Shown: positions 20,074 to 58,728, counted from the stretch's first letter. The stretch is DNA of 64,000 nucleotides from Patescibacteria group bacterium UBA3466 (GCA_002378195.1 DFRJ01000002.1:129054-193053); one strand, 5' to 3'. Translations and numbers: made by a program. Notes: a model not told the origin generated them from the letters alone.

Positions 20074-20110
20074 TTGTTACGTAGCATGTTACGTAACATG
20101 CTACGTAACA
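20074..20110. repeat. 37-bp repeat (copy 1) containing a perfect 36-bp palindrome TGTTACGTAGCATGTTACGTAACATGCTACGTAACA
   Basis: Read directly: self-complementary over 36 bp. Identical 37-mer at 58692-58728. Made of three 12-bp units TGTTACGTAGCA / TGTTACGTAACA / TGCTACGTAACA. Confidence 0.9.
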
Positions 20111-20130
20111 GCCTCTAAGAAGCGTGCAGT

Positions 20131-20400
20131 CTAGCTAACTAAGGCTGGTACTTTTTCGTTGGTGCGATTGATGCAGATAGTAGATCTTTCAATGTTGCTG
20201 CAGGTGGTTGTGGTAAGTGAAGTTGGAAGGTTGTCCAGTTGCTTTTGGTGCTCAACAGCGGATTGAGGGAAGGCGATACCGAGCTTAACTGAGCCAGTTT
20301 CTTTAGCTACGATACTAACTGTAACCAGAGTTTGCTTCTTGAAGGTTCTGATTTGTACATTGTTCACTTGCATCGTACTAGGGTTGAAGATCACGTGCAA
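20131..20400 (-). CDS. Hypothetical small protein
   Basis: 89-aa ORF between the palindrome and the recombinase remnant; no motif recognised. Confidence 0.35.
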   Translation of the reverse strand: MHVIFNPSTMQVNNVQIRTFKKQTLVTVSIVAKETGSVKLGIAFPQSAVEHQKQLDNLPTSLTTTTCSNIERSTICINRTNEKVPALVS

Positions 20401-20523
20401 CTCCTCACATTGTTTGTTTGATAGTGAGTGCTGCAGTAGGAAATTGATAGTTTCCTCTTTACCATAGTTTAGAGTAGGGGCTTTGAATAAGTTTAGTTTT
20501 GATACGTAAGGGCTGGTAAGTGA

Positions 20524-21675
20524 ATTGTTGTCTGCGAAAAGCGAGAGTCGTACTCAGCTAAAGCGTCTGGCAAGCGACCTGTATTTCAAGAGCTACTCAA
20601 TGAAATAGATTCAGGAAAATATAACGGAATACTCACATGGGCACCTGATAGATTGAGTCGTAATGCTGGTGACCTAGGTTCAGTCGTTGACTTAATGGAT
20701 GCGAAGAAGTTAGTTCATATACAAACCTATGGGCAAACTTTCAGTAACTCACCAAACGAGAAGTTTCTCCTAATGATTTTATGTTCTCAAGCAAAACTAG
20801 AGAACGATAACAAAAGTCAGAATGTACGACGAGGACTCCGAGCTAGGGTTGAAATGGGATTATGGCCGTGCCGACCACCGACTGGCTATACTAAATTCAA
20901 ACGTATGGATCAGAAGTGTGAATCTGTAATTGATCCAGAACGAGCGCCAATCATTAAGCAGATATTTGAGAAGATTGGTTATGATGGCTGGAGTGGTCGC
21001 AAACTCCATATCTGGCTTCGGGATGAATTAGATTTCAAAACTGAGAATGGTAAGCATCTCAGCCTAGGTAATCTTTATCGTATTCTTGAAAACCATTTCT
21101 ACTACGGACGGTTTGAATATCCAAAGAATTCAGGGAAATGGTATGACGGCGCACATGAACCAATCATTACCAAAGAGTTATTCATCATTGTTCAAGAGCA
21201 GATTAAGAGTCAAATACTTGAACCACGTTCACAACAAAAAGAATTTGCGTTTACCAAAGTAATGACGTGCGGACTCTGTGGATCAGGAATCACTGCTGAC
21301 GAGAAATTCAAGAAACAAAAGAATGGCAACGTCCACCGCTATGTCTATTACAAATGCACTCGCACTAAAGATCCTAATTGTGACTGTGGCTTCATCAATG
21401 AAAACGACCTCATATCACAACTACAAAACCTGATTGATGATATTGACATCAAAGTAGTGCCGATGAGAGACAAGATTACTTCTGAGGTTAAAAGATATAA
21501 ACAATTTCAGCACATGTTACTGGGAAAAGAAGAAAAGATTGCTGTTAGTAATATTGATATTAGGAATTATGCGAAGTTCATTTTACAAGAGGGCGATATA
21601 GAAGAAAAAAGAGAGTTTCTACGGTGCTTAAAAAGTGCAGTTGTGCTGAATAAAAAAGAAGTCTCACTCGTCTAG
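20524..21675 (+). pseudogene. Large serine recombinase, 5'-truncated (N-terminal catalytic Ser region missing)
   Basis: In-frame translation from 20524 gives ...YSAKASGKRPVFQELLNEIDSGKYNGILTWAPDRLSRNAGDLGSVV..., i.e. the resolvase catalytic-domain C-terminal half, then recombinase domain and zinc ribbon (CGLCGS...YYKCTRTKDPNCDC). In-frame stop at 20521 and no YxRVST nucleophile segment in any upstream frame. The ORF track only starts at TTG 20653. Confidence 0.6.
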
Positions 21676-21805
21676 TCCATAGGCCATCATTTGCTTTTTT
21701 TGGACTAAAGTGTTTCACTATTTGAGTATACGTTGCTCCAATACTTTTTGCCTCACACATTTTCTCCGAGGTACTTACAATTTAACTAATTAAATAAATA
21801 TATAT

Positions 21806-22624
21806 ATGATCGAATGGTTTTTAGCCTTGGGTCCTGTGACTCAAGCGCTCTTAGCAGGTTGTTTTACTTGGCTCGTTACTGCACTCGGTGCATCAGGAGT
21901 AATCTTCTTTAAAGAAATTAACAAAAAAGTTTTAAACGGAATGCTAGCCTTTGCGGCTGGTGTGATGATTGCGGCCAGTTTTTGGTCGTTACTCTCTCCG
22001 GCAATTGAATTATCAGAAGGCGGTCCACTGCCAAAATGGTTACCACCTTTAATAGGATTCTTACTCGGTGCTGCAACTTTGTGGGTAATGGACAAAGTAA
22101 TACCTCACTTACATCTCGGTGCACCTATGTCAGAAGTTGAAGGGGTGAAAACATCTTGGCATCGAAGTTTGCTTCTGGTTTCATCAATTACACTTCATAA
22201 CATCCCTGAAGGATTGGCTATTGGTGTTGCTTTTGGAGCGGCAGCGGCAGGTATTGAAGGAGCAACAGTTGCAGCAGCGATTGCTCTAGCAGTTGGTATT
22301 GGTATACAGAATTTCCCAGAAGGTGCAGCAGTTTCCGTTCCACTGAGACGAGAAGGGTTTACTCGCTTGAAAGCGTTTTGGTATGGTCAATTTTCAGGAA
22401 TGGTTGAACCAATCTCAGCGGTGTTAGGAGCTGCGTTGGTGATAACGTTCTCACCCGTTTTGCCGTATGCACTCGCTTTTGCTGCTGGAGCTATGATGTT
22501 TGTAGTTGTGGAAGAATTGATTCCTGAAGCCCAGCGCGGTGGTCCAGGTATGGCAGACTTCGCAACAGTTGGAGCGATGATTGGTTTTGCTGTAATGATG
22601 TCATTAGACGTAGGATTAGGTTAA
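21806..22624 (+). CDS. zupT: ZIP-family zinc transporter (ZupT-like)
   Basis: 8-TM ZIP topology with [10 protein letters not shown] and [10 protein letters not shown] metal-binding motifs. Confidence 0.8.
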
Positions 22625-22629
22625 AAAAT

Positions 22630-23535
22630 ATGTCACACAACCATCATCACGGACGTGGACACCATCATCACCACGTAGGTAGAGGTGGCAATATTTTGTT
22701 TGCTGCCATCCTAAACCTTTCTTTCACCATCATTGAAATCATTGGTGGTATTTTGACCAATAGCGTTGCTATCCTTTCTGACGCACTTCATGACTTAGGT
22801 GACAGTATTGCTTTGTTTACTGCCTATATTGCTGAGAAACAATCCGAACGCTCACCAGATAAAAAACGCACCTTCGGGTATGCTCGCATTTCAGTTTTCT
22901 CAGCCCTCTTTAGTGCCGTGATTCTGATTGTTGGTTCAATCTTTATTTTGACGGAGGCTATTCAGAGATTATTCAGTCCGGAACCAGTTCACGCTACTGG
23001 AATGATTCTATTAGCAATCTTTGGAGTAGGGGTAAACCTTGTGGCGTTCTTTAGATTAAGCAAAGGAATGAGTGCCAATGAAAAAGTGCTGTCATGGCAC
23101 TTACTTGAAGACGTGATTGGCTGGGCAGCTGTACTGGTTGGAGCCATCATCATCTACTTCACAGATTTCTATCTCATTGACCCAATCCTAACCGTTGGCT
23201 ACACCCTGTTCATTCTTTGGGGTGTTTATGGGGGTCTCAAAAATGTCATCAATATCTTCATGCAGGGGACACCGGCCTCGGTTGATATAGAAAAAATCAA
23301 AGAGGCGATTCTAGAAGTTTATGAAGTTCAATCAGTTCACGATATTCACGTGTGGTCGCTAGATGGTGAGCACAATGTTTTGACCTGTCACGTAGTACTT
23401 GATAATGGCACTATAGCTGAAACGAAGAGGATCAAGGAGAGTATAGAAGATAAAATGAAATCATTCCACGTCAACCACACAACAATTGAGTGTGAGATTG
23501 AAGGAGAGTGTGTTGGAAAAGACTGTAGTCACTAG
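22630..23535 (+). CDS. czcD: Cation diffusion facilitator Zn/Co/Cd efflux protein with His-rich N-terminus
   Basis: MSHNHHHGRGHHHHH tail; 6 TM with HxxxD motifs (LSDALHDLGD); C-terminal cytoplasmic domain. Confidence 0.85.
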   Translation: MSHNHHHGRGHHHHHVGRGGNILFAAILNLSFTIIEIIGGILTNSVAILSDALHDLGDSIALFTAYIAEKQSERSPDKKRTFGYARISVFSALFSAVILIVGSIFILTEAIQRLFSPEPVHATGMILLAIFGVGVNLVAFFRLSKGMSANEKVLSWHLLEDVIGWAAVLVGAIIIYFTDFYLIDPILTVGYTLFILWGVYGGLKNVINIFMQGTPASVDIEKIKEAILEVYEVQSVHDIHVWSLDGEHNVLTCHVVLDNGTIAETKRIKESIEDKMKSFHVNHTTIECEIEGECVGKDCSH

Positions 23536-23598
23536 TTTGTTGGAATGTAGACATATCGTTTAATCTTATGTATTTATCTGATAAAATGGTCAGGATAT

Positions 23599-24003
23599 AT
23601 GCGGAAATTACTTAGTGCTAATTCGATACGTAGAATACTAATTTTCTTCGGAATTGGTTTTTTCTTGTTGGCAGTGACCCTGTGCGCGCACTTTGCCAAC
23701 CCTACTGATCACGCTAGTGATACCAGTGCTGTTACGTGTGATTTGTCGGAAATAATCTCATCAGTTTCTGTATCAAATAAAAGCATGGGACTATTGTTCC
23801 TGTTAACGCTTTTAACACTAGCGTCCCTTGCTTTACCTACCATTTCTTCATACCCAAAAGCAGAGGTATGTTTGAAGTCACTACATCTACAAACCTATTC
23901 AATTACAAATGAATCTTGGTACAAAGTTTTAGATCCTTTTTTACTTGCGCTCCGTAAAGGAATCATACATCCTAAGCTATACAATACAGCGATAATTAGC
24001 TAA
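23599..24003 (+). CDS. Hypothetical membrane protein
   Basis: Two hydrophobic segments; no motif. Confidence 0.3.
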   Translation: MRKLLSANSIRRILIFFGIGFFLLAVTLCAHFANPTDHASDTSAVTCDLSEIISSVSVSNKSMGLLFLLTLLTLASLALPTISSYPKAEVCLKSLHLQTYSITNESWYKVLDPFLLALRKGIIHPKLYNTAIIS

Positions 24004-24105
24004 CGATTCACGGCTGCTGATAAGTCAGCTTTTCGTGATATATGTTGGCTTTTTTGCTATTCATTTATTTGCTCTAGAACGTTAAACACAAAACCTATTA
24101 ATTTT

Positions 24106-24864
24106 ATGGAAGAAACTATTACACAGAAACCCACCAACCCGTACCTGATACCCTTGGCTATCGTTGTTGCTGGCGGGTTGATTGCAGGAGCGTTGTATTT
24201 CGGCACAAGTGGAAACGCGGTAGCTCCAGTAGCGGTAAACAATAATGCTGAACAACCAGCCCAACCAACACCACAGCCAACTGGTTCAACCGATGCTGTT
24301 AAACCAGTTACAAGTGAAGATCATATTAAGGGAAATCCCAATGCGCCAATAAAAATTGTTGAATACTCAGATTTTGAATGCCCATTCTGTAAGCGGTTCC
24401 ACGACACGATGAATGAAGTCATGGATAAATACGGTGAGAGTGGCGAAGTCGCTTGGGTATTTAGACAATTCCCATTAGAGCAGTTACATCCAGTAAAAGC
24501 TCAGCGAGCAGCGGTTGCATCAGAGTGTGCAGCAGAATTGGGAGGAAACGATGCGTTCTGGTCGTTTACTGACGGATACTTCGTAGACCCCTCAACTGGA
24601 AACAACCGGACTAATCAAGACGTGTTAATTCCTGAATTAGCAGCTGCAGCTGGCCTGGACAGTAATCAGTTTAATGAATGTCTTGAAAGCAGTAAGTACG
24701 ACGATCATATCGCGGCTGATATCGCCAATGCGGTCGAAACTGGCGGGCGCGGAACTCCGTGGAGTGTCATGATTGGTCCTGATGGTGCAACGTACCCAAT
24801 TAACGGTGCGCAACCCCTAGCGGCAGTTGAGCAACTCATCTCAATTGCGAAAGACGGTCAGTAA
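24106..24864 (+). CDS. DsbA/BdbD-like thiol:disulfide oxidoreductase, membrane-anchored
   Basis: N-terminal TM; thioredoxin fold with CPFC active site (DFECPFCKRFHD). Confidence 0.75.
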   Translation: MEETITQKPTNPYLIPLAIVVAGGLIAGALYFGTSGNAVAPVAVNNNAEQPAQPTPQPTGSTDAVKPVTSEDHIKGNPNAPIKIVEYSDFECPFCKRFHDTMNEVMDKYGESGEVAWVFRQFPLEQLHPVKAQRAAVASECAAELGGNDAFWSFTDGYFVDPSTGNNRTNQDVLIPELAAAAGLDSNQFNECLESSKYDDHIAADIANAVETGGRGTPWSVMIGPDGATYPINGAQPLAAVEQLISIAKDGQ

Positions 24865-24869
24865 CTATC

Positions 24870-25418
24870 ATGTACCTCAAGACGTTTAAGCAAGTTCTGG
24901 CAAAATCCGTCTATGCGGGACTGTTTCTAGCGGTGAGTTTTTTTGTGCTGTCGATTGCCATCTTGTTGCCACACATCGGACTGTTAAAAACCTTATGGCA
25001 GTACGAATCAGTGTCGTTACTCGAAATCGGGTTGATGACTGTGAATCTCTACGGTTCACTAGGAACAAATTTTTCGTTTCTGTCAGCAACATACACGATA
25101 CTCATTGCCGTATTATTTGGTCTACAAGTAACTCTTCTCACCTATTACGTCAGGAGTATACGGAGCAAAATAACCAATCTCACCAGCGTAGGTGCTAGTA
25201 GTATCGGCGGCCTCGTTAGTGGATTTTTCGGCATTGGTTGTGCCGCTTGTGGAACTTTCTTACTGTCTTCAATTCTTGTTTTGTTTGGTGCAGGTGGCTT
25301 ACTCGCTTGGCTACCCTTTGGTGGAGAAGAGTTCGGTTTGCTTGGTGTGGGGCTGCTCTTGTATGCCAATCACATCGTCGTAAAGAAAATAAATGCACCA
25401 CTAGTGTGTGCATCGTAA
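24870..25418 (+). CDS. Polytopic membrane protein with intramembrane CxxC (GIGCAACGTF)
   Basis: 4-5 TM helices; CAAC within a helix; directly downstream of the DsbA-like gene, so possibly its redox partner. Confidence 0.4.
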   Translation: MYLKTFKQVLAKSVYAGLFLAVSFFVLSIAILLPHIGLLKTLWQYESVSLLEIGLMTVNLYGSLGTNFSFLSATYTILIAVLFGLQVTLLTYYVRSIRSKITNLTSVGASSIGGLVSGFFGIGCAACGTFLLSSILVLFGAGGLLAWLPFGGEEFGLLGVGLLLYANHIVVKKINAPLVCAS

Positions 25419-25445
25419 TCAAAATTTATTCTTAAGTAATTAAAC

Positions 25446-25979
25446 ATGAAACCATTAATAATTATTGTTGGTCTATCAGTACTCCTTCTCGTAGGTGGTT
25501 CGTGGTGGTCAAACAACGCACAACAGAAAGTATACGAACAAGAAATTGTCGGTATTACATCTACTATTGTGACAGATCGTAGCCATGTACAGACTGAAGT
25601 AGACTACAAAGACACTCCTCCGGTTGGTGGGAATCATCATCCTGTCTGGTTGAGCTGTAATGGCGACATCTACGATGAGCCAGTGGTAGATGAAAATGCG
25701 GTTCATTCACTTGAGCATGGTGCCGTCTGGATTACCTATCAGCCAGAACTTGCTGCCGAACAAATTGAAATTCTCAAAGGTAAAGTGAAAGGATACTCTT
25801 TCATGAGTCCGTACCCAGAACAAGAGTCACCAATTATGCTCACAGCGTGGGGTGTACAACTTCCACTTGATGCAGCTGATGATCCTCGGATAGATCAGTT
25901 TCTAGCAAAATTCCGCCAAGGACCACAAACGCCTGAGCCGGGTGCAACCTGTAATGCCATTCCGGGAGGAATGCAGTAA
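25446..25979 (+). CDS. DUF3105-family secreted/anchored protein
   Basis: N-terminal anchor; GGNHHPVW...HSLEHGAVWITYQP pattern typical of DUF3105. Confidence 0.55.
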   Translation: MKPLIIIVGLSVLLLVGGSWWSNNAQQKVYEQEIVGITSTIVTDRSHVQTEVDYKDTPPVGGNHHPVWLSCNGDIYDEPVVDENAVHSLEHGAVWITYQPELAAEQIEILKGKVKGYSFMSPYPEQESPIMLTAWGVQLPLDAADDPRIDQFLAKFRQGPQTPEPGATCNAIPGGMQ

Positions 25980-25987
25980 ACTGAACT

Positions 25988-26611
25988 ATGAATTATCAAG
26001 CTATTAAAAGACAGTTGCCAGCCCTCCTTATCGGGATTGTTGTTGGTGTTGGAATGTTCTTGCTCGGTCAGAATTCTATTCCACTCGATAAACCAAATGA
26101 GGCAGAGATTGGTTTTGCACAGGACATGAGTGTTCACCATCAACAAGCAATCGAAATGTCATTTCTTGTTCGAGAAAAAACCGATGATCAAGAGATTCGC
26201 GGTTTTGCCTTTGACATCATTAACACCCAAGCCAACCAGCGTGGCATGATGCTTGGTTGGCTGGATTTGTGGCAACAGCCACTCTCAACCACTAAAACGC
26301 CAATGATGTGGATGATGGATGATATGTCTTCTATGGATCACAGTCAGATGACAAAAGACTTTACCTCTGGAGCATACATGCCCGGCATGGCAACCAGTGA
26401 CGAAATGCAGACACTTGTTGAAGCGAGCGGAACAGACGCTGAGCAGTTATTTCTCGAGCTGATGATTCGCCATCATAAAGGCGGTGTCATGATGGCAGAC
26501 GGGGTTATAAAGCGCAGTGAGAATGAAACAGTCACTCGCTTGGCGCAAACCATGGTCAACGGTCAACAGGCAGAGATTGATTACATGAATGAGTTATTAA
26601 CAAACTACTAA
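25988..26611 (+). CDS. DUF305-family metal-binding protein
   Basis: Two His-rich helical repeats (MSVHHQQAIEMS; MIRHHKGGVMMA). Confidence 0.6.
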   Translation: MNYQAIKRQLPALLIGIVVGVGMFLLGQNSIPLDKPNEAEIGFAQDMSVHHQQAIEMSFLVREKTDDQEIRGFAFDIINTQANQRGMMLGWLDLWQQPLSTTKTPMMWMMDDMSSMDHSQMTKDFTSGAYMPGMATSDEMQTLVEASGTDAEQLFLELMIRHHKGGVMMADGVIKRSENETVTRLAQTMVNGQQAEIDYMNELLTNY

Positions 26612-26620
26612 AGAAATAAT

Positions 26621-27280
26621 ATGGAAGAAACACAAATAAGCGAAGATCCTGTTAAACATAACGAGATAGAAACTCCTGCTACAGCAGTAAAGATTCAACA
26701 AAAACCACTGCTAATGTACGGTGCAGTTGTTTTAGTTGTCGTCTTGATACTAGGTGCACTTTTATACTCGCAAGGAATTATTGTGGCAGCCAAAGTAAAT
26801 GGCGAGTCCATTAGTCGTCTTAGCGTTCTTAGTGAATTAGAAGATCAAGCTGGAGCAGCGGTACTTGATTCTCTTATCTCAGATATCCTGATTGAACAAG
26901 CTGCGACTGAAGCGGGTGTTACTGTAACTGATGCTGATGTGGTAACAGAGATAGCGGCCATCGAATCACAAATTTCTGGACAGGGTGGAACTCTCGAGGA
27001 TGTGTTGGCGCAACAGGGATTAACCCGAGAAAGTCTCACGAAGCAAATCAGAACACAAAAGATGTTAGAGACGTTATTGGCCTCAGACATTACGGTCACT
27101 GAGGAAGAAGTTAACGCGTTTATTGAAGCCAATGGACCCTTACCAGAAGGGCAAGAAGAAGCACTGCGTCCGCAGATAGAAGAACAAATCAAAAGTCAGA
27201 AATTTAGCACTGCTGCACAAAGCTACATTACCGGTTTACGCACACAGGCAAACATTCAGTACTTCGTAGACTATGAATAG
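26621..27280 (+). CDS. SurA N-terminal-domain-like periplasmic chaperone-type protein
   Basis: N-terminal TM then helical domain resembling the SurA/PpiD N-domain; no PPIase catalytic domain. Confidence 0.35.
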   Translation: MEETQISEDPVKHNEIETPATAVKIQQKPLLMYGAVVLVVVLILGALLYSQGIIVAAKVNGESISRLSVLSELEDQAGAAVLDSLISDILIEQAATEAGVTVTDADVVTEIAAIESQISGQGGTLEDVLAQQGLTRESLTKQIRTQKMLETLLASDITVTEEEVNAFIEANGPLPEGQEEALRPQIEEQIKSQKFSTAAQSYITGLRTQANIQYFVDYE

Positions 27281-28535
27281 TATGAAATATATTTTATTTA
27301 GCTTACTGGTGTTTTCTTTGCTCGGCGGCTTGTTTGCAACCATACACAACTCAGAAGTAACCACTGTTACCTATAAACGTGATACTCCTAGTGCCACGAC
27401 AGAAGTGGTCACCCAAATAGCTGAACCAGAAGAAGCAGTTGAGGAACCAGTTGTATCGACCTCAAACCAAGTAAAAGAAATTGAAATTCAGCCTGGCGAT
27501 ACCTTCTCTACCATTATGGAAGAAGTAGCTGTTACCGCTGAAGATCAGAGTTCAATTCTCGCTGCTGTTCAAGATGTCTATGACTTCACCAAACTGCAAG
27601 CTGGCAAACTGATACACGTTGTCTTTGCACAGGACGCATTAGCATCGGTTGACTATGACTTGAATGACGACAAGAAGATTGTAATTGAAAATGTTGACGG
27701 TGAATTTGTAGCCAAAGAAGAAGCGATTGAGTATGACGTTACTGAAGTGGTACGCAGTGCCACAATTGAGTCTTCGTTATTCTACGACGGTGCAAGTGCT
27801 GGCTTGTCCGACAAGACTCTGGTTGAACTAGCCGAAATCTTTCAGTGGGACATAGACTTCAGTACTGACATCCAGATTGACGACTCGTTTGTTGTTTTGT
27901 ATGAAGAGCGAAAAACAAAAGATGGTGAAGAAGCCAGTGCCGGAAAAATTCTCGCTGCTCAGTTCACTAATCAAGGCGAGACGTACGAGGCGTACTACTT
28001 TGAAACATCAACTAGTACAGGTGGTTACTACGCTGCCAACGGTGAGAGTGTTGAACGCCAGTTCTTAAGCTCACCAATTGGAGTTGGGTACGTGAGTTCA
28101 GGTTTCAGTTATAGCCGACTGAATCCAATTACCAAACGTGTGACACCACACCGAGCTATCGACTACGCTGCTCCACACGGTACGCCAATCGTGGCTATTG
28201 CGGACGGCGAAGTTACTTTGTCAGGAAACAGAGGTCCACTTGGTATTGCCATTGATATCGAACACGGACAGTACATGAGCCAGTACGCTCACATGTCTAG
28301 TATCGACTCTGCGGTGAAGAAAAATCCTGAAGTGAAACAAGGACAGGTTATCGGATACGTTGGTTCAACTGGTCAATCAACTGGTCCTCACTTGCACTAC
28401 ACACTCTTTAAAGATGGAAACCCTATCAATCCAGCTGACATTGATATGCCAGTCGGTGAATTACTCACCGAAACAGAGCTTGATGACTTTCAGGTCGTTG
28501 CTGACGGCTATAAGATTCAATTGGGTGTAAATTAA
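27273..28535 (+). CDS. M23-family peptidoglycan endopeptidase
   Basis: C-terminal LytM domain motifs (HRAIDYAAPHGTPI; GSTGQSTGPHLHYTLF); N-terminal anchor. Confidence 0.75.
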   Translation: MNSMKYILFSLLVFSLLGGLFATIHNSEVTTVTYKRDTPSATTEVVTQIAEPEEAVEEPVVSTSNQVKEIEIQPGDTFSTIMEEVAVTAEDQSSILAAVQDVYDFTKLQAGKLIHVVFAQDALASVDYDLNDDKKIVIENVDGEFVAKEEAIEYDVTEVVRSATIESSLFYDGASAGLSDKTLVELAEIFQWDIDFSTDIQIDDSFVVLYEERKTKDGEEASAGKILAAQFTNQGETYEAYYFETSTSTGGYYAANGESVERQFLSSPIGVGYVSSGFSYSRLNPITKRVTPHRAIDYAAPHGTPIVAIADGEVTLSGNRGPLGIAIDIEHGQYMSQYAHMSSIDSAVKKNPEVKQGQVIGYVGSTGQSTGPHLHYTLFKDGNPINPADIDMPVGELLTETELDDFQVVADGYKIQLGVN

Positions 28536-28549
28536 TCTAATTTATTAGT

Positions 28550-30505
28550 ATGACTGAAAAACATAACAACAATGCAGCTGTCTGTGATGACTGTGGAGCT
28601 GGGGACGAGACTACTCCTGCTACCGGCCTACGATCACTCTTCTCTCGCAGTGGTGCACTTAAAATGCTTACGCCTATTTCGGGAATGTTGCTTGTTTTGG
28701 CGTTTTTGAGTTCATACTCGCTACCACAACCGCAGTTTGCCACGTTGTTCTATATCCTTTCAATTGCGACCGGTTCAGTCTTTGTGGTGCAAAGTGCAGT
28801 GCGTGGACTTATTAAACAGCGTTTTCTCAACATCAGCTTTTTGGTGGTTATCGCTTCGCTTGGAGCCTTGTACATCGGTGAGTACGCTGAGGCAGCGGCG
28901 GTGGTATTTCTCTTTGCCTTAGCGGAACTCTTTGAAAGTTACGGCGTTGAACGCTCACGGCGAGCAGTAGCAGCATTGATTAAAAAATCACCCAAAGTAG
29001 CTCGAATGGTAGATGGTACTACTATGCCGGTTGAGAAAGTGGTTGTTGGAACCATTGTTGCTGTAAAGCCTGGAGAGCAGATTCCGTTAGATGGTGTGGT
29101 TGTCAAAGGTGAGTCGACCATTGATGAGGCGTCCATTACAGGCGAATCTATTCCAGTTGATAAAACTATTGATGATCAAGTGTTTGCCAGCACTATGAAT
29201 GTGCAAGGGTATCTTGAGATTAGGGTTGAGAAAGCTAGCCAAGACTCAACGTTTGCTCGGATTATTACTCTCATCGAAGAAGCTCAAGCATCGCGGGCAC
29301 CTACTCAGGCGTTCATCGACAAGTTTGCCCGCTACTACACGCCAGCCGTTGTCATATTGTCAATTTTAATTGCGGTGATACCAACCTTAGTCTTTGGTCT
29401 GCCGTTTGAAGATTGGCTCTATCGAGCGCTGATTCTCTTAGTGATTGCTTGCCCGTGTGCATTGGTGATTGCTACACCAGTGGCGATTGCTTCAGCGATT
29501 GGCGGTGCGTCACGTAGTGGCATTCTGATAAAGGGTGGAAAGTATCTTGAAAAATTAGCTAGCGTTAAAGTGGTGGCGTTTGATAAGACTCGTACCCTCA
29601 CTTATGGCACCCATACTGTTACTGATGTCATTGCTTTTGGTTCGCATAGTAAAGAAAAGGTCATTGCCGATGCTGCGGGTATTGAATTATTTTCTTCGCA
29701 TCCACTGGCTGAAGCAATTATTGCGTACGCAAAAGAACAGAGTATCGAGCCACATAAAATGGACTCCTATGAGAACGTGGCTGGCAAGGGTGGACGAGCG
29801 CAATGCTTGGTGTGTGAAGCCGACAGTTATATCGGTAACAGAAAACTACTGACCGAAAGCGGTATCGACAGTACGGCATTTGAAGCAGACGTAGAGCGCT
29901 TAGAAAAAGAAGGTAAAACGGTGGTGTTGGTAGCTGAAGGTAAGGAAGTAATTGGAGCGCTCGCGATTTCCGATCAAGTTCGTGAAGAAGCATCAGAAGT
30001 AATTGATGTACTCAGAAGAAGGGGTGTTGAGAGCGCAATGCTTACTGGTGACAACGAGCATAGTGCAGCCTACGTTGCTAATCTGATTGGTATAAATGAC
30101 GTTAAAGCCTCATTACTGCCTGAAGAAAAAGTAACCAGCGTGAAAGAACTAAGAGACAAGTATCACTCAGTGGCGATGGTTGGTGATGGAGTAAATGACG
30201 CTCCATCACTCGTTACATCAGACGTGGGGTTTGCTATTGGTGCTGGTGGTACCGATGCTGCTATAGAATCAGCTGACATAACTCTGTTATCTGGAGACTT
30301 ACGGACTATCCCACAGTCAATCAAACTAGCTCGCGCTACGGTTAAAACTATTCGAACAAACATTATTCTCGCACTTGGTATAAAAATCCTCTTCCTCATT
30401 CTCGTGCCGTTTGGTTTAACTAACCTGGTGTTCGCCATTGCCGCTGATTCAGGTATGGCTATTGTCGTAATTCTTAACAGTCTGAGACTCTTTGCGGTTA
30501 AATAA
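28550..30505 (+). CDS. zntA: P1B-type heavy-metal (Zn/Cd/Pb-type) translocating ATPase
   Basis: N-terminal CDDC metal site; CPC in TM6 (IACPCALVIATP); GDGVNDAP hinge; HP motif (SSHPLAEA). The phosphorylation loop reads DKTRTLT rather than canonical DKTGT. Confidence 0.85.
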   Translation: MTEKHNNNAAVCDDCGAGDETTPATGLRSLFSRSGALKMLTPISGMLLVLAFLSSYSLPQPQFATLFYILSIATGSVFVVQSAVRGLIKQRFLNISFLVVIASLGALYIGEYAEAAAVVFLFALAELFESYGVERSRRAVAALIKKSPKVARMVDGTTMPVEKVVVGTIVAVKPGEQIPLDGVVVKGESTIDEASITGESIPVDKTIDDQVFASTMNVQGYLEIRVEKASQDSTFARIITLIEEAQASRAPTQAFIDKFARYYTPAVVILSILIAVIPTLVFGLPFEDWLYRALILLVIACPCALVIATPVAIASAIGGASRSGILIKGGKYLEKLASVKVVAFDKTRTLTYGTHTVTDVIAFGSHSKEKVIADAAGIELFSSHPLAEAIIAYAKEQSIEPHKMDSYENVAGKGGRAQCLVCEADSYIGNRKLLTESGIDSTAFEADVERLEKEGKTVVLVAEGKEVIGALAISDQVREEASEVIDVLRRRGVESAMLTGDNEHSAAYVANLIGINDVKASLLPEEKVTSVKELRDKYHSVAMVGDGVNDAPSLVTSDVGFAIGAGGTDAAIESADITLLSGDLRTIPQSIKLARATVKTIRTNIILALGIKILFLILVPFGLTNLVFAIAADSGMAIVVILNSLRLFAVK

Positions 30506-30507
30506 AT

Positions 30508-30966: not shown

Positions 30967-30993
30967 GAAATTGAGTTATCTAACGATTGCACA

Positions 30994-31012
30994 TGAGACC
31001 CCCTGGGGGTAT
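30994..31012. promoter_or_regulatory. Putative CsoR operator (G/C-tract inverted repeat)
   Basis: aGACCCCCtGGGGGTaT immediately upstream of the csoR start. Confidence 0.45.
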
Positions 31013-31021
31013 ACTGACAAT

Positions 31022-31291: not shown

Positions 31292-31292
31292 T

Positions 31293-32459: not shown

Positions 32460-32465
32460 TCACGT

Positions 32466-33864: not shown

Positions 33865-33905
33865 CAGAAAGTATTAAATGTAAATTAATAACGTAATAAA
33901 TCTGT

Positions 33906-34373: not shown

Positions 34374-34378
34374 AACTT

Positions 34379-36824: not shown

Positions 36825-36851
36825 GTCAAATAGTATAATCGATACATCCAT

Positions 36852-37247: not shown

Positions 37248-37295
37248 CTAATAAAAACAGCAGAGCATTCTGCATTTATTAGCTTAGAAATATGT

Positions 37296-37955: not shown

Positions 37956-37974
37956 TAACAAAAGTAAATAAAAT

Positions 37975-43779: not shown

Positions 43780-43782
43780 GCT

Positions 43783-45321
43783 ATGTATGATAATCCTATG
43801 AAAGCAGGTAATGCAGTGATCTATTGTCGTGTATCGTCCCTAGAACAGGTTGAAGGAACCAGTCTTGAGTCTCAGGAACGTATGTGTCGAGACTACGCTA
43901 AAAGAGAAGGAATGGCTGTCTCAGAGGTGTTTATAGATCGTGGTGAGTCTGCTAAAACAGCAGATCGTACAGAATTTTTAAATGCCATATCGTACTGCTC
44001 CAAAAAGAAGAATGATGTCAGTCACTTCGTCGTATACAAGTTAGATCGCTTTGCCCGTAACCAAGAAGACCACATAGGAGTTCGTGCCAAGCTGAAACAA
44101 TATGGTGTCCAACTGCGCTCAGTCACTGAGCCGATTGATGATTCTCCAATGGGTAAGATGATGGAAGGTATCCTCTCTACTTTTGCAGAGTTCGACAACA
44201 ACGTTCGTACTGAAAGAAGCACAAACGGAATGAAAGAACGTCTTAAGAAAGGAATTTGGGTCTGGTCAGCACCACTTGGATACAAGCGTCTAGAGAAAGG
44301 TGGAAATTTAGTTCCTGATGAAGCAAACGCACACTACGTACGCATGGTTTTTGATGAGTATTCCAAAGGTGTTCATACATACAAAACACTAGCCACACTT
44401 TTATTTGAAAAAGGGTTTCGTTCCAAAGGTGGTAAAAAGATTCCGTTTCAAACTTACGAGAAGATGCTTAAGAATCCACTCTACTGCGGAATCATTAAGG
44501 TTGATACGTGGGGAGTTGAGATGAGAGGAGATTTTGAACCAATCATTTCAGAAGACCTCTTCAGGAAGTGTCAGGAGTCAGGTCGCACACACAAATCATT
44601 TTCAAAACTGACCAAGAACCCCGATTTTCCATTGAGGAAGATTGTTGTTTGTGAATGGTGTGGTGCTCCACTAACCGGTAGTTATTCAACTGGTCGTCAT
44701 GGAAAGAAGTATGGTTACTATCATCACCACAAGCAAGGTTGCCCTTGTGCTAGCTCGATCAGGAAGGATGATTTGGAGAAAGATTTTGTTTCTTTACTGG
44801 AAGAGATCAATCCGACTGTGCAGTACGCAAATCTGTTTAAAGAGGCATTCATGGAGATCTACAATGAAGAAAATAAGAAAAGCGAAGAGACTAGCGCTGC
44901 GGCTCAGAAAGAGCTTGAGAAACTGAAAGATAAGAAAGCTCATATCTATAACAACTTTGAAGATGGTGTGTACACCAAGACAGAGTTTTTAGAGCGTAAG
45001 AGGGAAGTAGACAAGCTTATCATTGCTGGAGAGTCAGTTATTGCAACTGAGGATACGTCAGACGTCGATATCGAGAAAGCGCTCGACTACTGCCTGAGCT
45101 TTGTTACTGACACACCAAACAAATGGAGTGAATTGGCAAAATACCCTGAAGAACGCTTGCGGTTCCAAAATTTTATTTTTGACGGCAATATTCCGTATAC
45201 ACAAAACAACGGTTTTGGAACCGCTGTTTTGTCGCCTATTTATTCGATATATCAGCATTGGCAGGCTGATAATTCTTCTTTGGTGATCCCACGGGGAATC
45301 GAACCCCGATTTCCAGGATGA
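43783..45321 (+). CDS. Large serine recombinase (integrase), intact
   Basis: N-terminal resolvase catalytic domain with nucleophile Ser (AVIYCRVSSLEQ) and KLDRFARN; recombinase domain; zinc ribbon (CEWCGAPL...GCPC); coiled coil. The 3' end overlaps the tRNA-Glu 3' end. Confidence 0.85.
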   Translation: MYDNPMKAGNAVIYCRVSSLEQVEGTSLESQERMCRDYAKREGMAVSEVFIDRGESAKTADRTEFLNAISYCSKKKNDVSHFVVYKLDRFARNQEDHIGVRAKLKQYGVQLRSVTEPIDDSPMGKMMEGILSTFAEFDNNVRTERSTNGMKERLKKGIWVWSAPLGYKRLEKGGNLVPDEANAHYVRMVFDEYSKGVHTYKTLATLLFEKGFRSKGGKKIPFQTYEKMLKNPLYCGIIKVDTWGVEMRGDFEPIISEDLFRKCQESGRTHKSFSKLTKNPDFPLRKIVVCEWCGAPLTGSYSTGRHGKKYGYYHHHKQGCPCASSIRKDDLEKDFVSLLEEINPTVQYANLFKEAFMEIYNEENKKSEETSAAAQKELEKLKDKKAHIYNNFEDGVYTKTEFLERKREVDKLIIAGESVIATEDTSDVDIEKALDYCLSFVTDTPNKWSELAKYPEERLRFQNFIFDGNIPYTQNNGFGTAVLSPIYSIYQHWQADNSSLVIPRGIEPRFPG

Positions 45322-45355
45322 GAACCTGGCGTCCTAGCCGTTAGACGATGGGACC
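45281..45355 (-). tRNA. tRNA-Glu (anticodon CUC), CCA encoded
   Basis: Minus-strand sequence GGTCCCATCGTCTAACGGCTAGGACGCCAGGTTCTCATCCTGGAAATCGGGGTTCGATTCCCCGTGGGATCACCA folds by hand into a cloverleaf: 7-bp acceptor, D arm, anticodon loop UUCUCAU, 5-bp T stem CGGGG/CCCCG with TTCGATT loop. Confidence 0.85.
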
Positions 45356-55920: not shown

Positions 55921-55928
55921 AATGTTAC

Positions 55929-57518: not shown

Positions 57519-57521
57519 AAA

Positions 57522-57551
57522 GTGGGCGGTGGACCGAAGGTCCACCGCCCA
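57522..57551. terminator. Bidirectional hairpin terminator after rmuC
   Basis: GGGCGGTGGACC-gaa-GGTCCACCGCCC; the T-tract lies on the minus side (AAAAAGT on plus). Confidence 0.6.
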
Positions 57552-57760
57552 GCTGCACACTAACGCCTTCTTCGTCGTGATTTCTGGTCGGGACGAGCTT
57601 TGGTTCGTCTGACGTGCGATTTCACGGCCGCGCGTAGTCTGCACTTGTTTGGTTCAGTTGGTGTGTCTGACACTCTACTTCCTCTTTTTTGTTTCTGCCC
57701 GATTTGGCAGGCAAGCAAAGTATCACAAAACTGTTGGTGAGGGAAGTGGATATAGATAAA

Positions 57761-57805
57761 CCCCGTAATGGAGATTATCTCCTCCAGTACGGGGTTGTTT
57801 TTATT
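57761..57805 (+). terminator. Rho-independent terminator (plus strand), bounding an untranslated ~200-nt interval
   Basis: CCCCGTAATGGAG-attatc-TCCTCCAGTACGGGG followed by TTGTTTTTATTG. Confidence 0.55.
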
Positions 57806-57840
57806 GTCGCAGCTCAGGCTGGATGTGCTTGGGTCGGGGC

Positions 57841-58010
57841 CTAGCGAAGGGTTGTGGAAGCGTGATAATCTGCATCCACAGCTTGGTCTTGGCTCTCGCA
57901 GCCATATTGTCGCGCTTGGTCTTCCACAAATCTTTTGTCGGCTGATCGCTGAGAGTGCCTAACACTCTTTTTTTCACGCTTCTTAACGGCGTGACGCTTA
58001 TTTCTTGGCA
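57841..58010 (-). CDS. Possible small basic protein (MPRNKRHAVKKREKKSVRHSQRS...)
   Basis: GAGGAAAC RBS 6 nt upstream of the ATG at 58010 (minus); very basic N-terminus. The ORF track lists a longer 57841..58152 version. No confident family match. Confidence 0.3.
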
Positions 58011-58085
58011 TGAAAGTTTCCTCGTATGGAATGAGCTTGCTTTTGCTAGCATAGCAATAAATCGGGTTTTTTGGCAACAAAAGCG

Positions 58086-58113
58086 TTGCAAAACTGTTAA
58101 TTTCTTGTATACT
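58086..58113 (+). promoter_or_regulatory. Sigma70-like promoter for rplU
   Basis: TTGCAA-16 nt-TATACT about 90 nt upstream of the rplU ATG. Confidence 0.5.
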
Positions 58114-58120
58114 CATGCCC

Positions 58121-58176
58121 ACTACAACCAAGCGAGCAAGAGTTGCAGGCAATTAATTTGACTACAACCAAGCGAG
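58121..58176 (+). repeat. Two 16-bp direct repeats ACTACAACCAAGCGAG in the rplU 5' leader
   Basis: Copies at ~58121-58136 and ~58161-58176, 40 bp apart, between the promoter and the rplU start. Confidence 0.6.
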
Positions 58177-58201
58177 TGAAGGGTGTATAAATTCTATTTA
58201 T

Positions 58202-58534
58202 ATGGCAACAGAAACAACAAATTCAGCACCATTTGCAGTGATCGCTACCGGCGGGAAGCAATATGTCGTGCGTGAAGGTGATACTCTGCTAGTGGAACTC
58301 CTTGGTGATCATAAGGAAGGTGACAAGATTGAATTCGACACTGTACTAATGACTGACGATGGGAAGTCTGCCAAAGTTGGTACACCTCATACTGGAACAA
58401 AAGTTTCAGCTACCTATCTAGGTGAAAAGAAGGGTAAGAAGATCACTATCGTTCGATACAAGGCTAAGAGTAACCGAGATCGACGAATTGGTCACCGACA
58501 GCAGTACGCTGAGATCAAGATCGACAAAATCTAA
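58202..58534 (+). CDS. rplU: 50S ribosomal protein L21
   Basis: FAVIATGGKQYVVREGDTLLVE...IVRYKAKSNRDRRIGHRQQYAEIKI typical bL21. Confidence 0.9.
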   Translation: MATETTNSAPFAVIATGGKQYVVREGDTLLVELLGDHKEGDKIEFDTVLMTDDGKSAKVGTPHTGTKVSATYLGEKKGKKITIVRYKAKSNRDRRIGHRQQYAEIKIDKI

Positions 58535-58543
58535 AATACCAGA

Positions 58544-58575
58544 AACCGGTGCATTTGCACCGGTTTCGCTTTTGT
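58544..58575 (+). terminator. Rho-independent terminator after rplU
   Basis: AACCGGTGCA-tt-TGCACCGGTT followed by a T-rich tail. Confidence 0.6.
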
Positions 58576-58691
58576 ATTTAGTCACTGTACGTTTGTACGT
58601 TTTCTTCATACAAAAACTCCAACCGACACAACTACATCCGGTTTCTGAAATTTTAATAATAATCTGCAGTTGCGGTGGCTTTGTCTAACTT

Positions 58692-58728
58692 TTGTTACGT
58701 AGCATGTTACGTAACATGCTACGTAACA
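58692..58728. repeat. 37-bp repeat (copy 2) containing the same 36-bp palindrome; palindrome extends to 40 bp here (58691-58730)
   Basis: Identical to 20074-20110; lies between the convergent rplU and recR, 28 bp past the recR stop. Confidence 0.9.

What the first reader, a model, noticed from the sequence alone, without database searches (positions are those of the whole stretch)
20074..58728. Identical 37-bp sequence with a perfect 36-bp palindrome, present twice 38.6 kb apart and bracketing the accessory island
TTGTTACGTAGCATGTTACGTAACATGCTACGTAACA occurs at 20074-20110 and again, base for base, at 58692-58728. The 36-bp core is a perfect palindrome (40 bp in copy 2). An identical 37-mer twice in 64 kb is very unlikely by chance. 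Copy 1 lies ~60-95 bp upstream of hisS and ~400 bp from a serine recombinase remnant at the left edge of the metal island. Copy 2 lies in the convergent rplU/recR spacer. The interval holds the whole island plus ~13 kb of core genes (truB, msrAB, rmuC, rplU). Possible roles: crossover sites for serine-recombinase-mediated inversion or excision of the segment, chromosome-organising (parS-like) sites, or operators of a shared regulator.
Basis: seen in the sequence. Interest (0 to 1): 0.8.

Follow-up and report, generated by a model that had tools for sequence, protein, structure and literature searches.

The report
Binding-site array of a small AbrB-type protein
The two identical palindromes are copies of a short DNA motif shared by many ultra-small (Patescibacteria/CPR) bacteria; it almost certainly serves as the docking site of a tiny, highly conserved DNA-binding protein, and it does not mark the ends of the metal-resistance island.

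Summary
The same 37-mer lies at 20074-20110 and 58692-58728, with none expected by chance.

The interpretation mostly fails. The sequence is an array of three tandem 12-bp palindromic units, TGYTACGTARCA. Arrays of two or three such units occur in more than 140 contigs from many Patescibacteria lineages, with unrelated flanks. They are absent from the viral, plasmid and phage collections searched.

The only recurrent neighbour is a 52-aa AbrB/MazE/SpoVT-fold protein. In 19-20 of 138 motif-selected loci its start codon lies 7-115 nt from the array (mostly 7-40) and always faces it. All 5 loci selected through the protein alone also carry the array upstream. No toxin partner is present.

I read the motif as this protein's binding array (inferred, not shown), which represses its own gene. 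Other "orphan" arrays sit mostly at gene 3' ends and sometimes inside genes, where they are kept under selection.

Both window copies are orphan arrays. Three syntenic relatives lack them. Copy 2 lies 13 kb outside the island, which ends at a serine recombinase beside tRNA-Glu. Twelve same-species contigs show no rearranged junction. The protein gene was not found in 77 kb of this genome.

The parts
20075..20110 (.). Array copy 1: three tandem 12-bp palindromic units (20075-20086 TGTTACGTAGCA, 20087-20098 TGTTACGTAACA, 20099-20110 TGCTACGTAACA). Together they form a perfect 36-bp palindrome.
   Evidence: It has the same unit composition as the commonest 3-unit array in other Patescibacteria (16 of 32 de-duplicated 3-unit arrays).
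58693..58728 (.). Array copy 2: the identical three units. The palindrome extends to 40 bp through the TT/AA flanks (58691-58730).
   Evidence: The array is present in all 5 same-species contigs checked out of the 6 recR-side contigs fetched (L154, L155, L157, L158 printed; L156 in the data set). It is absent from the same spacer in three syntenic relatives (L152, L153, L161).
20052..20080 (-). Promoter-like site facing hisS. Its -35 hexamer GTAACA (20080-20075) is the last hexamer of array copy 1. A 17-nt spacer follows, then TGcTATGAT (extended -10).
   Evidence: This is a consensus match only (9 of 12), about as frequent as in shuffled sequence. It is inferred, not shown.
18766..20016 (-). 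hisS (histidine--tRNA ligase), the gene whose 5' end faces copy 1 at 58 nt.
   Evidence: TIGR00442, 316 bits, cutoff 287; Pfam tRNA-synt_His.
20131..20400 (-). Hypothetical 87-89-aa ORF that ends 20 nt before copy 1 and runs in the same direction as hisS. No family match.
58202..58534 (+). rplU (L21). Its own intrinsic terminator lies at 58542-58567, 125 nt before copy 2.
58756..59376 (-). recR, whose stop codon lies 27 nt from copy 2. It is the last gene of the cysS-dnaB-recR run on the minus strand.
43783..45355 (.). Context, not part of the element: a full-length large serine recombinase (43783-45321, +) abutting tRNA-Glu (45281-45355, -). This is the true right end of the metal island.
   Evidence: Relative L161 has PIF1 and then FAD oxidase, as in window 45439-49061.

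Best explanation
The 36-mer is an array of three adjacent binding sites, each a 12-bp palindrome TGYTACGTARCA spaced 12 bp centre to centre. The binder is most likely a small (about 52 aa) AbrB/MazE/SpoVT-fold protein that is highly conserved in Patescibacteria.

By analogy with AbrB, MazE and MraZ, one swapped-hairpin dimer would occupy each unit, and neighbouring dimers would bind cooperatively. Where the array sits just upstream of the protein's own gene, it acts as an autoregulatory operator.

The same genomes carry a few further "orphan" arrays. The two in this window are orphan arrays.
- Copy 1 overlaps the putative -35 of the hisS promoter, so bound protein could repress hisS or block read-through.
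- Copy 2 sits between convergent genes with no promoter to control. It would act, if at all, as a roadblock, an architectural site or a titration site.

Shown: the motif's structure, its distribution, its association with the protein gene, and its conservation inside genes. Inferred: that this protein binds it, the stoichiometry, and the effect on hisS.
For: - Unit structure. A scan that left positions 3 and 10 of each unit free returned only Y at position 3 and R at position 10. It gave 113 two-unit and 38 three-unit arrays, with flanks unrelated between loci.
- Gene association. Among all ORFs of 25-110 aa starting within 150 nt of an array, only one family recurs across loci, a 52-aa protein (consensus MKKYIRKVTRVGKRSLSVVIPAEIVDELKIREKQKLV.RRSGKKIIIEDWKK). 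It is found in 19-20 of 138 motif-selected loci. Its 5' end always faces the array, which ends 7-115 nt (mostly 7-40 nt) before the ATG. My estimate of the chance expectation is below 1 locus.
- Reciprocal test. Five homologues chosen only for long contigs all carry 2-3 units upstream. In four the array lies 10-48 nt before the ATG. In the fifth it lies upstream of a HIT-abrB operon.
- Protein fold. The protein matches Pfam PF04014 (SpoVT/AbrB-MazE) at 32 bits against a cutoff of 24.7. The AlphaFold model is beta-beta-alpha-beta-beta with pLDDT 83.6. The highest-probability structural hits are the AbrB N-domain bound to DNA and MazE.
- Matching invariance. The N-terminal hairpin residues R6, K7, T9, R10, G12, R14 and S15 are invariant in 32 sequences, which parallels the invariance of the DNA motif.
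- No toxin partner. No conserved downstream gene exists, so this is a stand-alone DNA binder rather than a toxin-antitoxin pair.
- Orphan arrays are under DNA-level selection. In miaA and prmC orthologue pairs that are only 55% and 49% identical, the array sits at the same codon. It is 22/24 and 21/24 nt identical, against about 15/24 in the flanks, and differs only at the Y/R positions.
- Copy 1 overlaps a promoter-like -35 element facing hisS.
Against: - No binding experiment exists. The protein-motif link rests on genomic association alone.
- The protein gene was not found in the 64-kb window or in about 13 kb of same-species flanks.
- Array-bearing intergenic regions are enriched for convergent gene pairs (38 of 102, against 153 of 932 in the background) and depleted for divergent pairs (6, against 138). 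This is the opposite of what a classical promoter operator predicts.
- Some arrays lie inside genes.
- Genes whose 5' ends face the arrays have no common function.
- Three syntenic relatives lack both window copies, so these two copies have no conserved regulatory target.
- A TrpR/YerC-like gene also faces an array in 3 loci. A different binder is therefore not excluded.
Confidence: 0.6

Rival explanations
1. Architectural or centromere-like sites. The arrays are bound by the same small protein or another one. Their main role would be chromosome organisation, working like parS, RefZ-binding motifs or plasmid iteron centromeres, and the copy upstream of the protein gene would merely double as its operator.
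For: - Copy number is low, and several loci carry 2-4 sites within 0.7-10 kb.
- The arrays are indifferent to transcription context. They occur in convergent spacers and inside housekeeping genes such as miaA, prmC, murG and tmk.
- In-gene positions are conserved between orthologues of 49-55% identity.
- Tandem short repeats upstream of a small dimeric DNA binder resemble ParR/parC, omega and TubR/tubC centromeres (established knowledge).
Against: - No partition NTPase (ParA, ParM or TubZ) or other conserved partner lies next to the protein gene. Only one array in about 145 sits upstream of a parA gene.
- The motif is not the parS consensus, and no canonical parS occurs in the window or in any locus.
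- Cumulative GC skew rises steadily across the window, so no origin or terminus lies here.
- Close relatives lack the sites altogether, which is odd for an essential organiser.
Confidence: 0.17
2. A miniature mobile or copy-paste palindromic element, comparable to REP sequences or Rickettsia palindromic elements. It would spread within and between Patescibacteria genomes, and the AbrB-type gene would be a passenger or a frequent landing site.
For: - Identical 36-mers sit at non-homologous places in one genome.
- The arrays are absent from the same spacers in three syntenic relatives.
- Distribution across lineages is patchy. Only 14 of the GTDB species genomes carry 3-unit arrays, and 6 of those 14 carry two.
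- The arrays are enriched at gene 3' ends and in convergent spacers, where insertions do least harm.
- Some copies are in frame inside genes.
- The palindrome often continues into non-conserved flanks. It extends by at least 4 bp in 22 of 142 sites, against 0.55 expected, and by up to 12 bp. This would fit insertion into pre-existing hairpins.
Against: - Neither target-site duplications nor an associated transposase or RAYT gene were observed, though neither was searched for systematically. Copy number is 1-4 per long contig rather than tens to hundreds.
- The sequence is conserved across classes, whereas REP families are species-specific.
- The in-gene copies are not insertions. They align to native residues of solved MiaA and HemK homologues and have been kept at the same codon over long divergence, which indicates function.
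- The flank extension can also arise from template-switch mutation at palindromes (established knowledge).
- No copies occur in the viral, plasmid or phage collections.
Confidence: 0.14
3. An RNA-level hairpin, with a 16-bp stem in the 3-unit form. It would work as a terminator, a processing site or a stability element in 3' UTRs and in the leader of the small gene.
For: - The predicted hairpins are very stable, at -28 to -30 kcal/mol with z-scores of -6 to -7.
- The arrays are enriched at gene 3' ends.
- The palindrome extends into the flanks in a compensatory way.
Against: - Two-unit and three-unit arrays would have different loops (CAUG and ACGU).
- 55 of 145 arrays (38%) are imperfect palindromes. 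Where the transcription direction is known, disruptive A.C mismatches on the sense strand (11 arrays) are at least as common as G.U (6 arrays).
- No U-tract follows either window copy on either strand.
- rplU has its own terminator.
- No Rfam family matches.
Confidence: 0.05
4. The two copies would be crossover sites at which a serine recombinase inverts or excises the 38.6-kb segment that carries the metal island.
For: - Copy 1 lies about 540 nt from a truncated serine recombinase gene.
- The two copies are identical.
Against: - The island ends at 45.3 kb, at a full-length recombinase next to tRNA-Glu, not at copy 2.
- The motif is widespread in genomes, and I noticed no adjacent recombinase in most loci, though I ran no systematic scan.
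- The palindromic CG centre gives no polarity.
- Twelve independent same-species contigs show only the window's arrangement.
Confidence: 0.02

Closest known systems
AbrB / MazE / SpoVT (swapped-hairpin) DNA-binding proteins and their operators, including MraZ with its tandem repeats upstream of the dcw operon
   Same: - The associated protein carries the PF04014 domain and the beta-beta-alpha-beta-beta topology.
- The site lies upstream of the protein's own gene.
- The site consists of several adjacent repeats about one helical turn apart. MraZ likewise binds a series of repeats, and MazE binds alternating palindromes (established knowledge).
   Different: - No toxin partner is present, unlike MazE, VapB and PrlF.
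- The protein has no C-terminal domain, unlike AbrB and SpoVT. It consists of the bare 52-aa domain.
- The recognition sequence is a sharply defined 12-bp palindrome conserved across many candidate phyla, whereas AbrB has no strong consensus.
- Extra copies sit in convergent spacers and inside genes.
- No NCBIfam model reaches its cutoff, and no solved structure matches by sequence.
yefM-yoeB / axe-txe type operators (paired palindromes with a 12-bp centre-to-centre distance)
   Same: Both consist of adjacent short palindromes with a hexameric core (TGTACA there, TACGTA here) spaced 12 bp apart, bound by a small dimeric autorepressor. This comparison rests on recalled literature and was not tested here.
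   Different: The protein fold differs (Phd/YefM there), the sequence differs, that system is a toxin-antitoxin pair, and it has no orphan sites.
parS / ParB, and RefZ-binding motifs of Bacillus
   Same: All are highly conserved palindromes at low copy number. They can lie inside genes, at positions conserved between species. One copy lies near the gene of the binding protein.
   Different: - The sequence is not tGTTtCAcGTGAAAcA. The central unit TGTTACGTAACA resembles a parS shortened by 4 bp, but no canonical parS was found.
- No ParB or TetR-type partner is associated, and no ParA operon.
- Relatives lack the sites.
REP/BIME elements and Rickettsia palindromic elements
   Same: All are short palindromes found at 3' ends of genes and occasionally in frame inside genes. 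Their presence differs between related genomes.
   Different: - There are 1-4 copies per several hundred kb rather than tens to hundreds.
- The sequence is the same across classes.
- No RAYT or transposase was observed, though none was searched for systematically.
- The in-gene copies replace native codons rather than adding a peptide.

Membership tests
Operator array of an AbrB/MazE/SpoVT-family regulator | The cognate protein has the SpoVT/AbrB swapped-hairpin domain. | tested here: met
   PF04014 scores 32.0 bits against a cutoff of 24.7. It was also precomputed for most of the 120 listed homologues. The AlphaFold model is beta-beta-alpha-beta-beta with pLDDT 83.6. The Foldseek matches to AbrB-N and MazE are not statistically significant.
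Operator array of an AbrB/MazE/SpoVT-family regulator | The site lies in the promoter or leader of the regulator's own gene (autoregulation). | tested here: met
   This holds in 19-20 of 138 motif-selected loci, always with the gene's 5' end facing the array, which lies 7-115 nt before the ATG. It also holds in 5 of 5 protein-selected loci.
Operator array of an AbrB/MazE/SpoVT-family regulator | The protein binds the site directly and specifically. | not testable with these tools
   This needs EMSA, footprinting or DAP-seq.
Operator array of an AbrB/MazE/SpoVT-family regulator | The regulator is encoded in the same genome as the sites in this window. | tested here: inconclusive
   An HMM search of the six-frame translation of the window found no hit (best E = 0.07). 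The 10 kb to the left gave no hit either. The roughly 2.4 kb of L154 beyond the window's right end shows no PF04014 gene among the called genes. The rest of the genome could not be reached.
Type II toxin-antitoxin operator (MazE/VapB/PrlF type) | A toxin gene sits in an operon with the antitoxin. | tested here: not met
   The genes downstream of the 52-aa gene differ in every locus, and no recurrent partner exists.
parS / ParB centromere | The 16-bp consensus tGTTtCAcGTGAAAcA. | tested here: not met
   The motif unit is TGYTACGTARCA. The window has no parS with 2 or fewer mismatches, and none of the 159 loci has an exact TGTTNCACGTGNAACA.
parS / ParB centromere | Origin-proximal clustering next to parAB. 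| tested here: inconclusive
   The window shows no GC-skew turning point. One array in about 145 lies upstream of a parA gene. Whole-genome positions could not be examined.
Serine-recombinase crossover sites (att / hix / res) | The sites lie at the two ends of the mobile or invertible segment. | tested here: not met
   The island's right end is at 45.3 kb, at a recombinase next to tRNA-Glu. Copy 2 is at 58.7 kb, within core genes that are syntenic in relatives.
Serine-recombinase crossover sites (att / hix / res) | An asymmetric central dinucleotide gives the site polarity. | tested here: not met
   The palindrome is perfect and its centre is the self-complementary CG.
Serine-recombinase crossover sites (att / hix / res) | Recombined junctions occur in the population. 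| tested here: not met
   Six hisS-side and six recR-side same-species contigs from different samples all show the parental arrangement. This is a limited sample, and no read-level data were available.
REP / BIME / RPE dispersed palindromes | High copy number per genome and a species-specific sequence. | tested here: not met
   There are 2 copies in about 77 kb here. The same sequence occurs across Kaiser-, Moranii-, Pacei- and Saccharibacteria.
Intrinsic terminator | A GC-rich hairpin followed by a U-tract. | tested here: not met
   The terminator scan reports neither copy, and no T-run follows on either strand.
Any Rfam RNA family | A match at or above the gathering score. | tested here: not met
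   The only match in the window is tRNA-Glu.

The most novel reading that the evidence does not exclude
Patescibacteria would possess a lineage-specific DNA-organising system. In it a bare 52-aa AbrB-fold protein recognises arrays of a 12-bp palindrome placed at a few chromosomal positions. These include positions inside essential genes, where the DNA sequence is preserved against coding drift. The system would serve chromosome structuring or segregation, or act as transcription-replication roadblocks, rather than ordinary gene regulation. New sites would arise by copy-paste of the array.
Probability: 0.2. Interest if true: 0.75.

Novelty: new variant of a known kind. Interest (0 to 1): 0.6.

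Why it matters
Almost nothing is known about gene regulation or chromosome organisation in Patescibacteria. These organisms make up a large share of bacterial diversity and have very few recognisable transcription factors.

This work pairs a sharply defined cis-element, conserved across many candidate phyla, with a single tiny DNA-binding protein. That gives a directly testable handle. The protein can be synthesised, and the site is 24-36 bp long. Cultivable Saccharibacteria could be checked for the pair, because one genome-scan hit (L002) is from a MAG labelled Saccharibacteria.

The orphan arrays inside housekeeping genes, kept at the DNA level over deep divergence, suggest a function beyond promoter control.

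For annotation of this window, the result removes a false lead. The palindromes do not delimit the metal island. The island is instead bounded by a serine recombinase next to tRNA-Glu.

Tried and rejected
- **Literature.** Full-text searches for the motif sequences, for Patescibacteria binding motifs or regulons, and for AbrB in CPR found nothing relevant.
- **Rfam.** No family matches at either copy.
- **Viral contigs, plasmids and phages.** The motif is absent from all three, so no mobile-element vehicle was found.
- **Canonical parS.** Absent.
- **Toxin-antitoxin reading.** Rejected, because the small gene has no conserved partner.
- **Common regulon.** Clustering the neighbours of about 145 sites gave only the AbrB-type family and, weakly, a TrpR/YerC-like family (3 loci). 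hisS lies within 1 kb of an array in 3 loci. This is suggestive at best, and one of those is really a his-operon hisZ-like gene.
- **RNA hairpin.** Rejected on the lack of G.U over A.C bias and on the different loops of 2-unit and 3-unit arrays.
- **Known operators considered from memory.** LexA, NrdR, CIRCE, BirA, cre/LacI-type and Zur/Fur boxes were rejected. The sequences do not match, and their signature target genes are not neighbours.
- **att repeats.** I searched for repeats of the tRNA-Glu end near copy 1. No convincing direct repeat was found.
- **Structure comparison with PDB.** No match was statistically significant. This is expected when an obligate intertwined dimer is modelled as a monomer.
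- **The protein gene in this organism.** It is not in the window or the reachable flanks. Walking further along the 0.6-Mb contigs was not possible with the look-up rules.

Full report
**1. Checking the observation**

The 37-mer TTGTTACGTAGCATGTTACGTAACATGCTACGTAACA occurs exactly at 20074-20110 and 58692-58728. No match appears in 100 dinucleotide-preserving shuffles. Reading the sequence confirms the perfect 36-bp palindrome, which reaches 40 bp in copy 2.

- Copy 1 lies 58 nt upstream of the hisS start at 20016 (TIGR00442). It is 20 nt downstream of a co-directional hypothetical 87-89-aa ORF.
- Copy 2 lies between convergent rplU and recR. It is 27 nt past the recR stop and 125 nt past rplU's own terminator hairpin.
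- No further unit of the motif occurs in the window, even with a mismatch allowed.

The palindrome is three head-to-tail 12-bp units, TGTTACGTAGCA, TGTTACGTAACA and TGCTACGTAACA. Each unit is itself a near-perfect palindrome.

**2. The organism**

The proteins match bacterial housekeeping families only weakly. The closest RecR sequences, at 82% identity or less, are labelled Candidatus Nomurabacteria, Paceibacteria or Kaiserbacteria. Identical proteins occur on Tara Oceans and other marine contigs. The window therefore comes from a marine member of the Patescibacteria (CPR), of Parcubacteria/Paceibacteria type, with 45% GC.

**3. The motif is widespread, not a local repeat**

I scanned one genome per GTDB species for TACGTARCATGYTACGTARCATGYTACGTA. 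This found 20 loci in 14 MAGs. Most are labelled Patescibacteria (Kaiser-, Moranii-, Pacei- and Saccharibacteria), while 5 loci from 4 MAGs are labelled Bdellovibrionales or Gammaproteobacteria. Six of the 14 MAGs carry two loci.

Parsing all loci gave these results.

- There are 113 two-unit and 38 three-unit arrays.
- The free positions are always Y (position 3) and R (position 10).
- The commonest forms are TGTTACGTAGCA-TGCTACGTAACA (61 arrays) and the window's exact 36-mer (16 arrays).
- Conservation stops sharply at the array edges, and flanks are unrelated between loci.

The motif is absent from 2.9 million viral contigs and from the plasmid and phage collections. No Rfam family matches it. 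I found no paper that mentions it.

**4. The partner gene**

I clustered all ORFs flanking about 145 arrays. This gave no shared neighbour among normal-sized genes.

One family of very small proteins stood out, with the consensus MKKYIRKVTRVGKRSLSVVIPAEIVDELKIREKQKLV.RRSGKKIIIEDWKK.

- tblastn and a dedicated small-ORF clustering place the gene next to an array in 19-20 of 138 motif-selected loci.
- The gene's 5' end always faces the array.
- The array ends 7-40 nt before the ATG in most cases, and 59 or 115 nt before it in one subfamily.
- It is the only recurrent small ORF family at the arrays.

The reverse test also holds. Five homologues were picked only for their long contigs: a Tara contig, a 1.02-Mb genome and three others. 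All carry 2-3 units upstream. In four the array lies 10-48 nt before the ATG. In the fifth it lies in front of a HIT-abrB two-gene operon.

The evidence on the protein itself is as follows.

- It matches Pfam PF04014 (MazE/SpoVT-AbrB) above the gathering score.
- No NCBIfam model reaches its cutoff.
- No PDB sequence is a relative.
- An AlphaFold model has the beta-beta-alpha-beta-beta order of the swapped-hairpin fold, with pLDDT 83.6.
- The Foldseek matches are not significant, but those with the highest probability are DNA-bound AbrB-N and MazE.
- Thirty-two homologues are 69-90% identical, with an invariant basic N-terminal hairpin.
- The downstream genes differ in every locus, so this is not a toxin-antitoxin pair.

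**5. Behaviour of the other ("orphan") arrays**

About 85% of arrays are not next to the small gene.

*Position relative to genes.* I compared array-bearing intergenic regions with all other intergenic regions of the same loci. The array-bearing ones are enriched for convergent gene pairs (38 of 102 against 153 of 932) and depleted for divergent pairs (6 against 138). Genes that do face an array with their 5' end are functionally heterogeneous. A TrpR/YerC-like gene does so in three loci.

*Arrays inside genes.* Some arrays lie in frame inside real genes, coding for LLR(S/N)MLR(N/S)K. These genes are miaA, prmC/hemK, murG, a tmk-like gene and an O-antigen-ligase-like gene. Alignment to solved MiaA and HemK structures shows that these copies are not insertions. 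They occupy native positions.

In two orthologue pairs, only 55% and 49% identical in protein, the array sits at the same codon. It is 22/24 and 21/24 nt identical and differs only at the Y/R positions. Flanking 24-nt windows average about 15/24. That indicates purifying selection on the DNA sequence itself.

*Symmetry.* Fifty-five of 145 arrays (38%) are not globally palindromic. Where the transcription direction is known, A.C mismatches on the sense strand (11 arrays) are at least as frequent as G.U (6 arrays). This argues against a selected RNA hairpin and for recognition unit by unit.

*Flank extension.* The palindrome continues into non-conserved flanks far more often than chance. It extends by at least 4 bp in 22 of 142 sites against 0.55 expected, and by up to 12 bp. 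Part of this is a T-rich/A-rich flank preference. The rest fits either template-switch "perfecting" of palindromes or placement within older hairpins. I cannot decide between these two.

**6. The two window copies in context**

*Relatives.* Three relatives share the gene order dnaB-recR > < rplU-...-rmuC-yqeY-...-truB-...-PIF1. Their RecR proteins are 79%, 76% and 74% identical to the window's. In all three the recR/rplU spacer is just a terminator or unrelated sequence, with no motif unit in about 20 kb each. The third relative also lacks the motif upstream of hisS. Both copies are therefore specific to this lineage.

*Same-species contigs.* All same-species contigs from other samples show the window's arrangement, six on each side. 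No inversion or deletion junction appears.

*The island.* The metal island does not end at copy 2.

- A full-length large serine recombinase (43783-45321) carries the Resolvase, Recombinase and Zn-ribbon domains.
- It sits next to a Rep-like gene and a NERD nuclease gene.
- It abuts tRNA-Glu (45281-45355).
- Immediately beyond lie FAD oxidase and PIF1, as in the relative.
- The 340-aa remnant at 20653-21675 is a paralogous fragment lacking the catalytic domain.

*Possible effects.* At copy 1 a promoter-like match facing hisS uses the array's terminal GTAACA as its -35, followed by 17 nt and TGcTATGAT. Such matches are as common in shuffled sequence, so this is only a lead. At copy 2 no terminator-type tail follows on either strand.

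*The protein gene.* No gene of the AbrB-type family was found in the window by HMM search, in the 10 kb to the left by HMM search, or among the called genes and their Pfam annotations in the roughly 2.4 kb of L154 beyond the window's right end.

**7. Interpretation**

The best-supported reading is that the array is the binding site of the 52-aa AbrB-fold protein. One dimer would bind per 12-bp palindrome, and two or three dimers would sit side by side. The array would act as an autoregulatory operator at the protein's own gene. A handful of additional arrays per genome are maintained by selection, for a purpose that is not ordinary promoter control.

The binding itself is inferred from association alone. 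The stoichiometry is inferred by analogy with AbrB, MazE and MraZ.

A role as architectural or roadblock sites, and an origin of new copies by copy-paste, are both compatible with the data. I list them as rivals or variants. The serine-recombinase reading is essentially excluded.

**8. Novelty**

The kind of thing is known: a small AbrB-family DNA binder with a repeated palindromic operator. I found no description of this protein subfamily or of this motif. The combination of features is unusual for that kind.

- The conservation is extreme across many candidate phyla.
- The copy number is low.
- The arrays sit in convergent spacers and inside essential genes.
- The pair is absent from close relatives.

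I therefore rate it a new variant of a known kind, of moderate to good interest. The main caveat is that the cognate gene has not been shown to exist in this particular genome.

Noticed in passing
window 42747-45355: A full-length large serine recombinase (512 aa, with Resolvase, Recombinase and Zn_ribbon_recom domains) ends inside or against tRNA-Glu(ctc) at 45281-45355. It is preceded by a Rep-like gene (REP_ORF2-G2P, 42747-43604) and a NERD nuclease gene (40843-41673). GC drops to 35-39% at 40-44 kb. This looks like the integration module and the true right end of the metal island.
   Followed up: partly
window 20653-21675: The 340-aa "recombinase remnant" has the Recombinase and Zn-ribbon domains but no catalytic Resolvase domain. 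It shares a 29-nt stretch at 79% identity with the full-length recombinase gene (21156-21184 against 44535-44563). The island may therefore be a composite of two integration events.
   Followed up: partly
window 57520-58200: About 680 nt between rmuC and rplU contain no convincing ORF and no Rfam match. Gene callers place a 64-65-aa ORF here in same-species contigs and in relatives (L154 8176-8370, L152 11562-11759). This may be a small protein or an unrecognised RNA.
   Followed up: no
window 58418-58690: About 160 nt of the rplU/recR spacer are absent from the 62-nt and 45-nt spacers of relatives L153 and L161. The stretch contains a promoter-like match (TAGACA-17-GATTAT, minus strand, directly after copy 2). 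It also contains a GGAG-preceded ATG at 58609, whose ORF runs through the rplU terminator. The ORF is probably not a gene, but an array-adjacent small transcript cannot be excluded.
   Followed up: partly
L065 4313-4336, L140 5727-5750 (miaA); L097 1420-1443, L128 5853-5876 (prmC); L126/L137 (murG); L027 (tmk-like); L092 (O-antigen-ligase-like): The two-unit array is embedded in frame in housekeeping genes, translated as LLR(S/N)MLR(N/S)K. It sits at the same codon in orthologue pairs only 49-55% identical, and synonymous positions are conserved.
   Followed up: yes
L009 5974-6260: In one Paceibacteria MAG, about 1 kb carrying a hicA-like toxin gene plus an array is wedged between rplB and rpsS of the otherwise contiguous ribosomal protein operon.
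   Followed up: no
L005, L008, L012, L014, L016: Five motif-bearing loci come from MAGs labelled Bdellovibrionales or Gammaproteobacteria rather than Patescibacteria. L014 also carries the AbrB-type gene 3.4 kb from the array. These are either mislabelled bins or evidence that the pair occurs outside the CPR.
   Followed up: no
L015 2456-2884, L082 722-1168, L092 3152-3424, L106 689-1105: TrpR/YerC-like genes (PF01371) face an array in three loci. In L106 such a gene lies directly downstream of the AbrB-type gene. This family may be a second member of the same small circuit.
   Followed up: partly
window 21806-39690: The island cargo includes a ZIP transporter, a CDF transporter, DsbA-like, DUF305 and DUF3105 proteins, two P-type ATPases (28550-30505 and 34809-36824, sharing conserved stretches) and a multicopper oxidase (37975-39690). 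This is an unusually rich metal-handling set for a reduced Patescibacteria genome.
   Followed up: no
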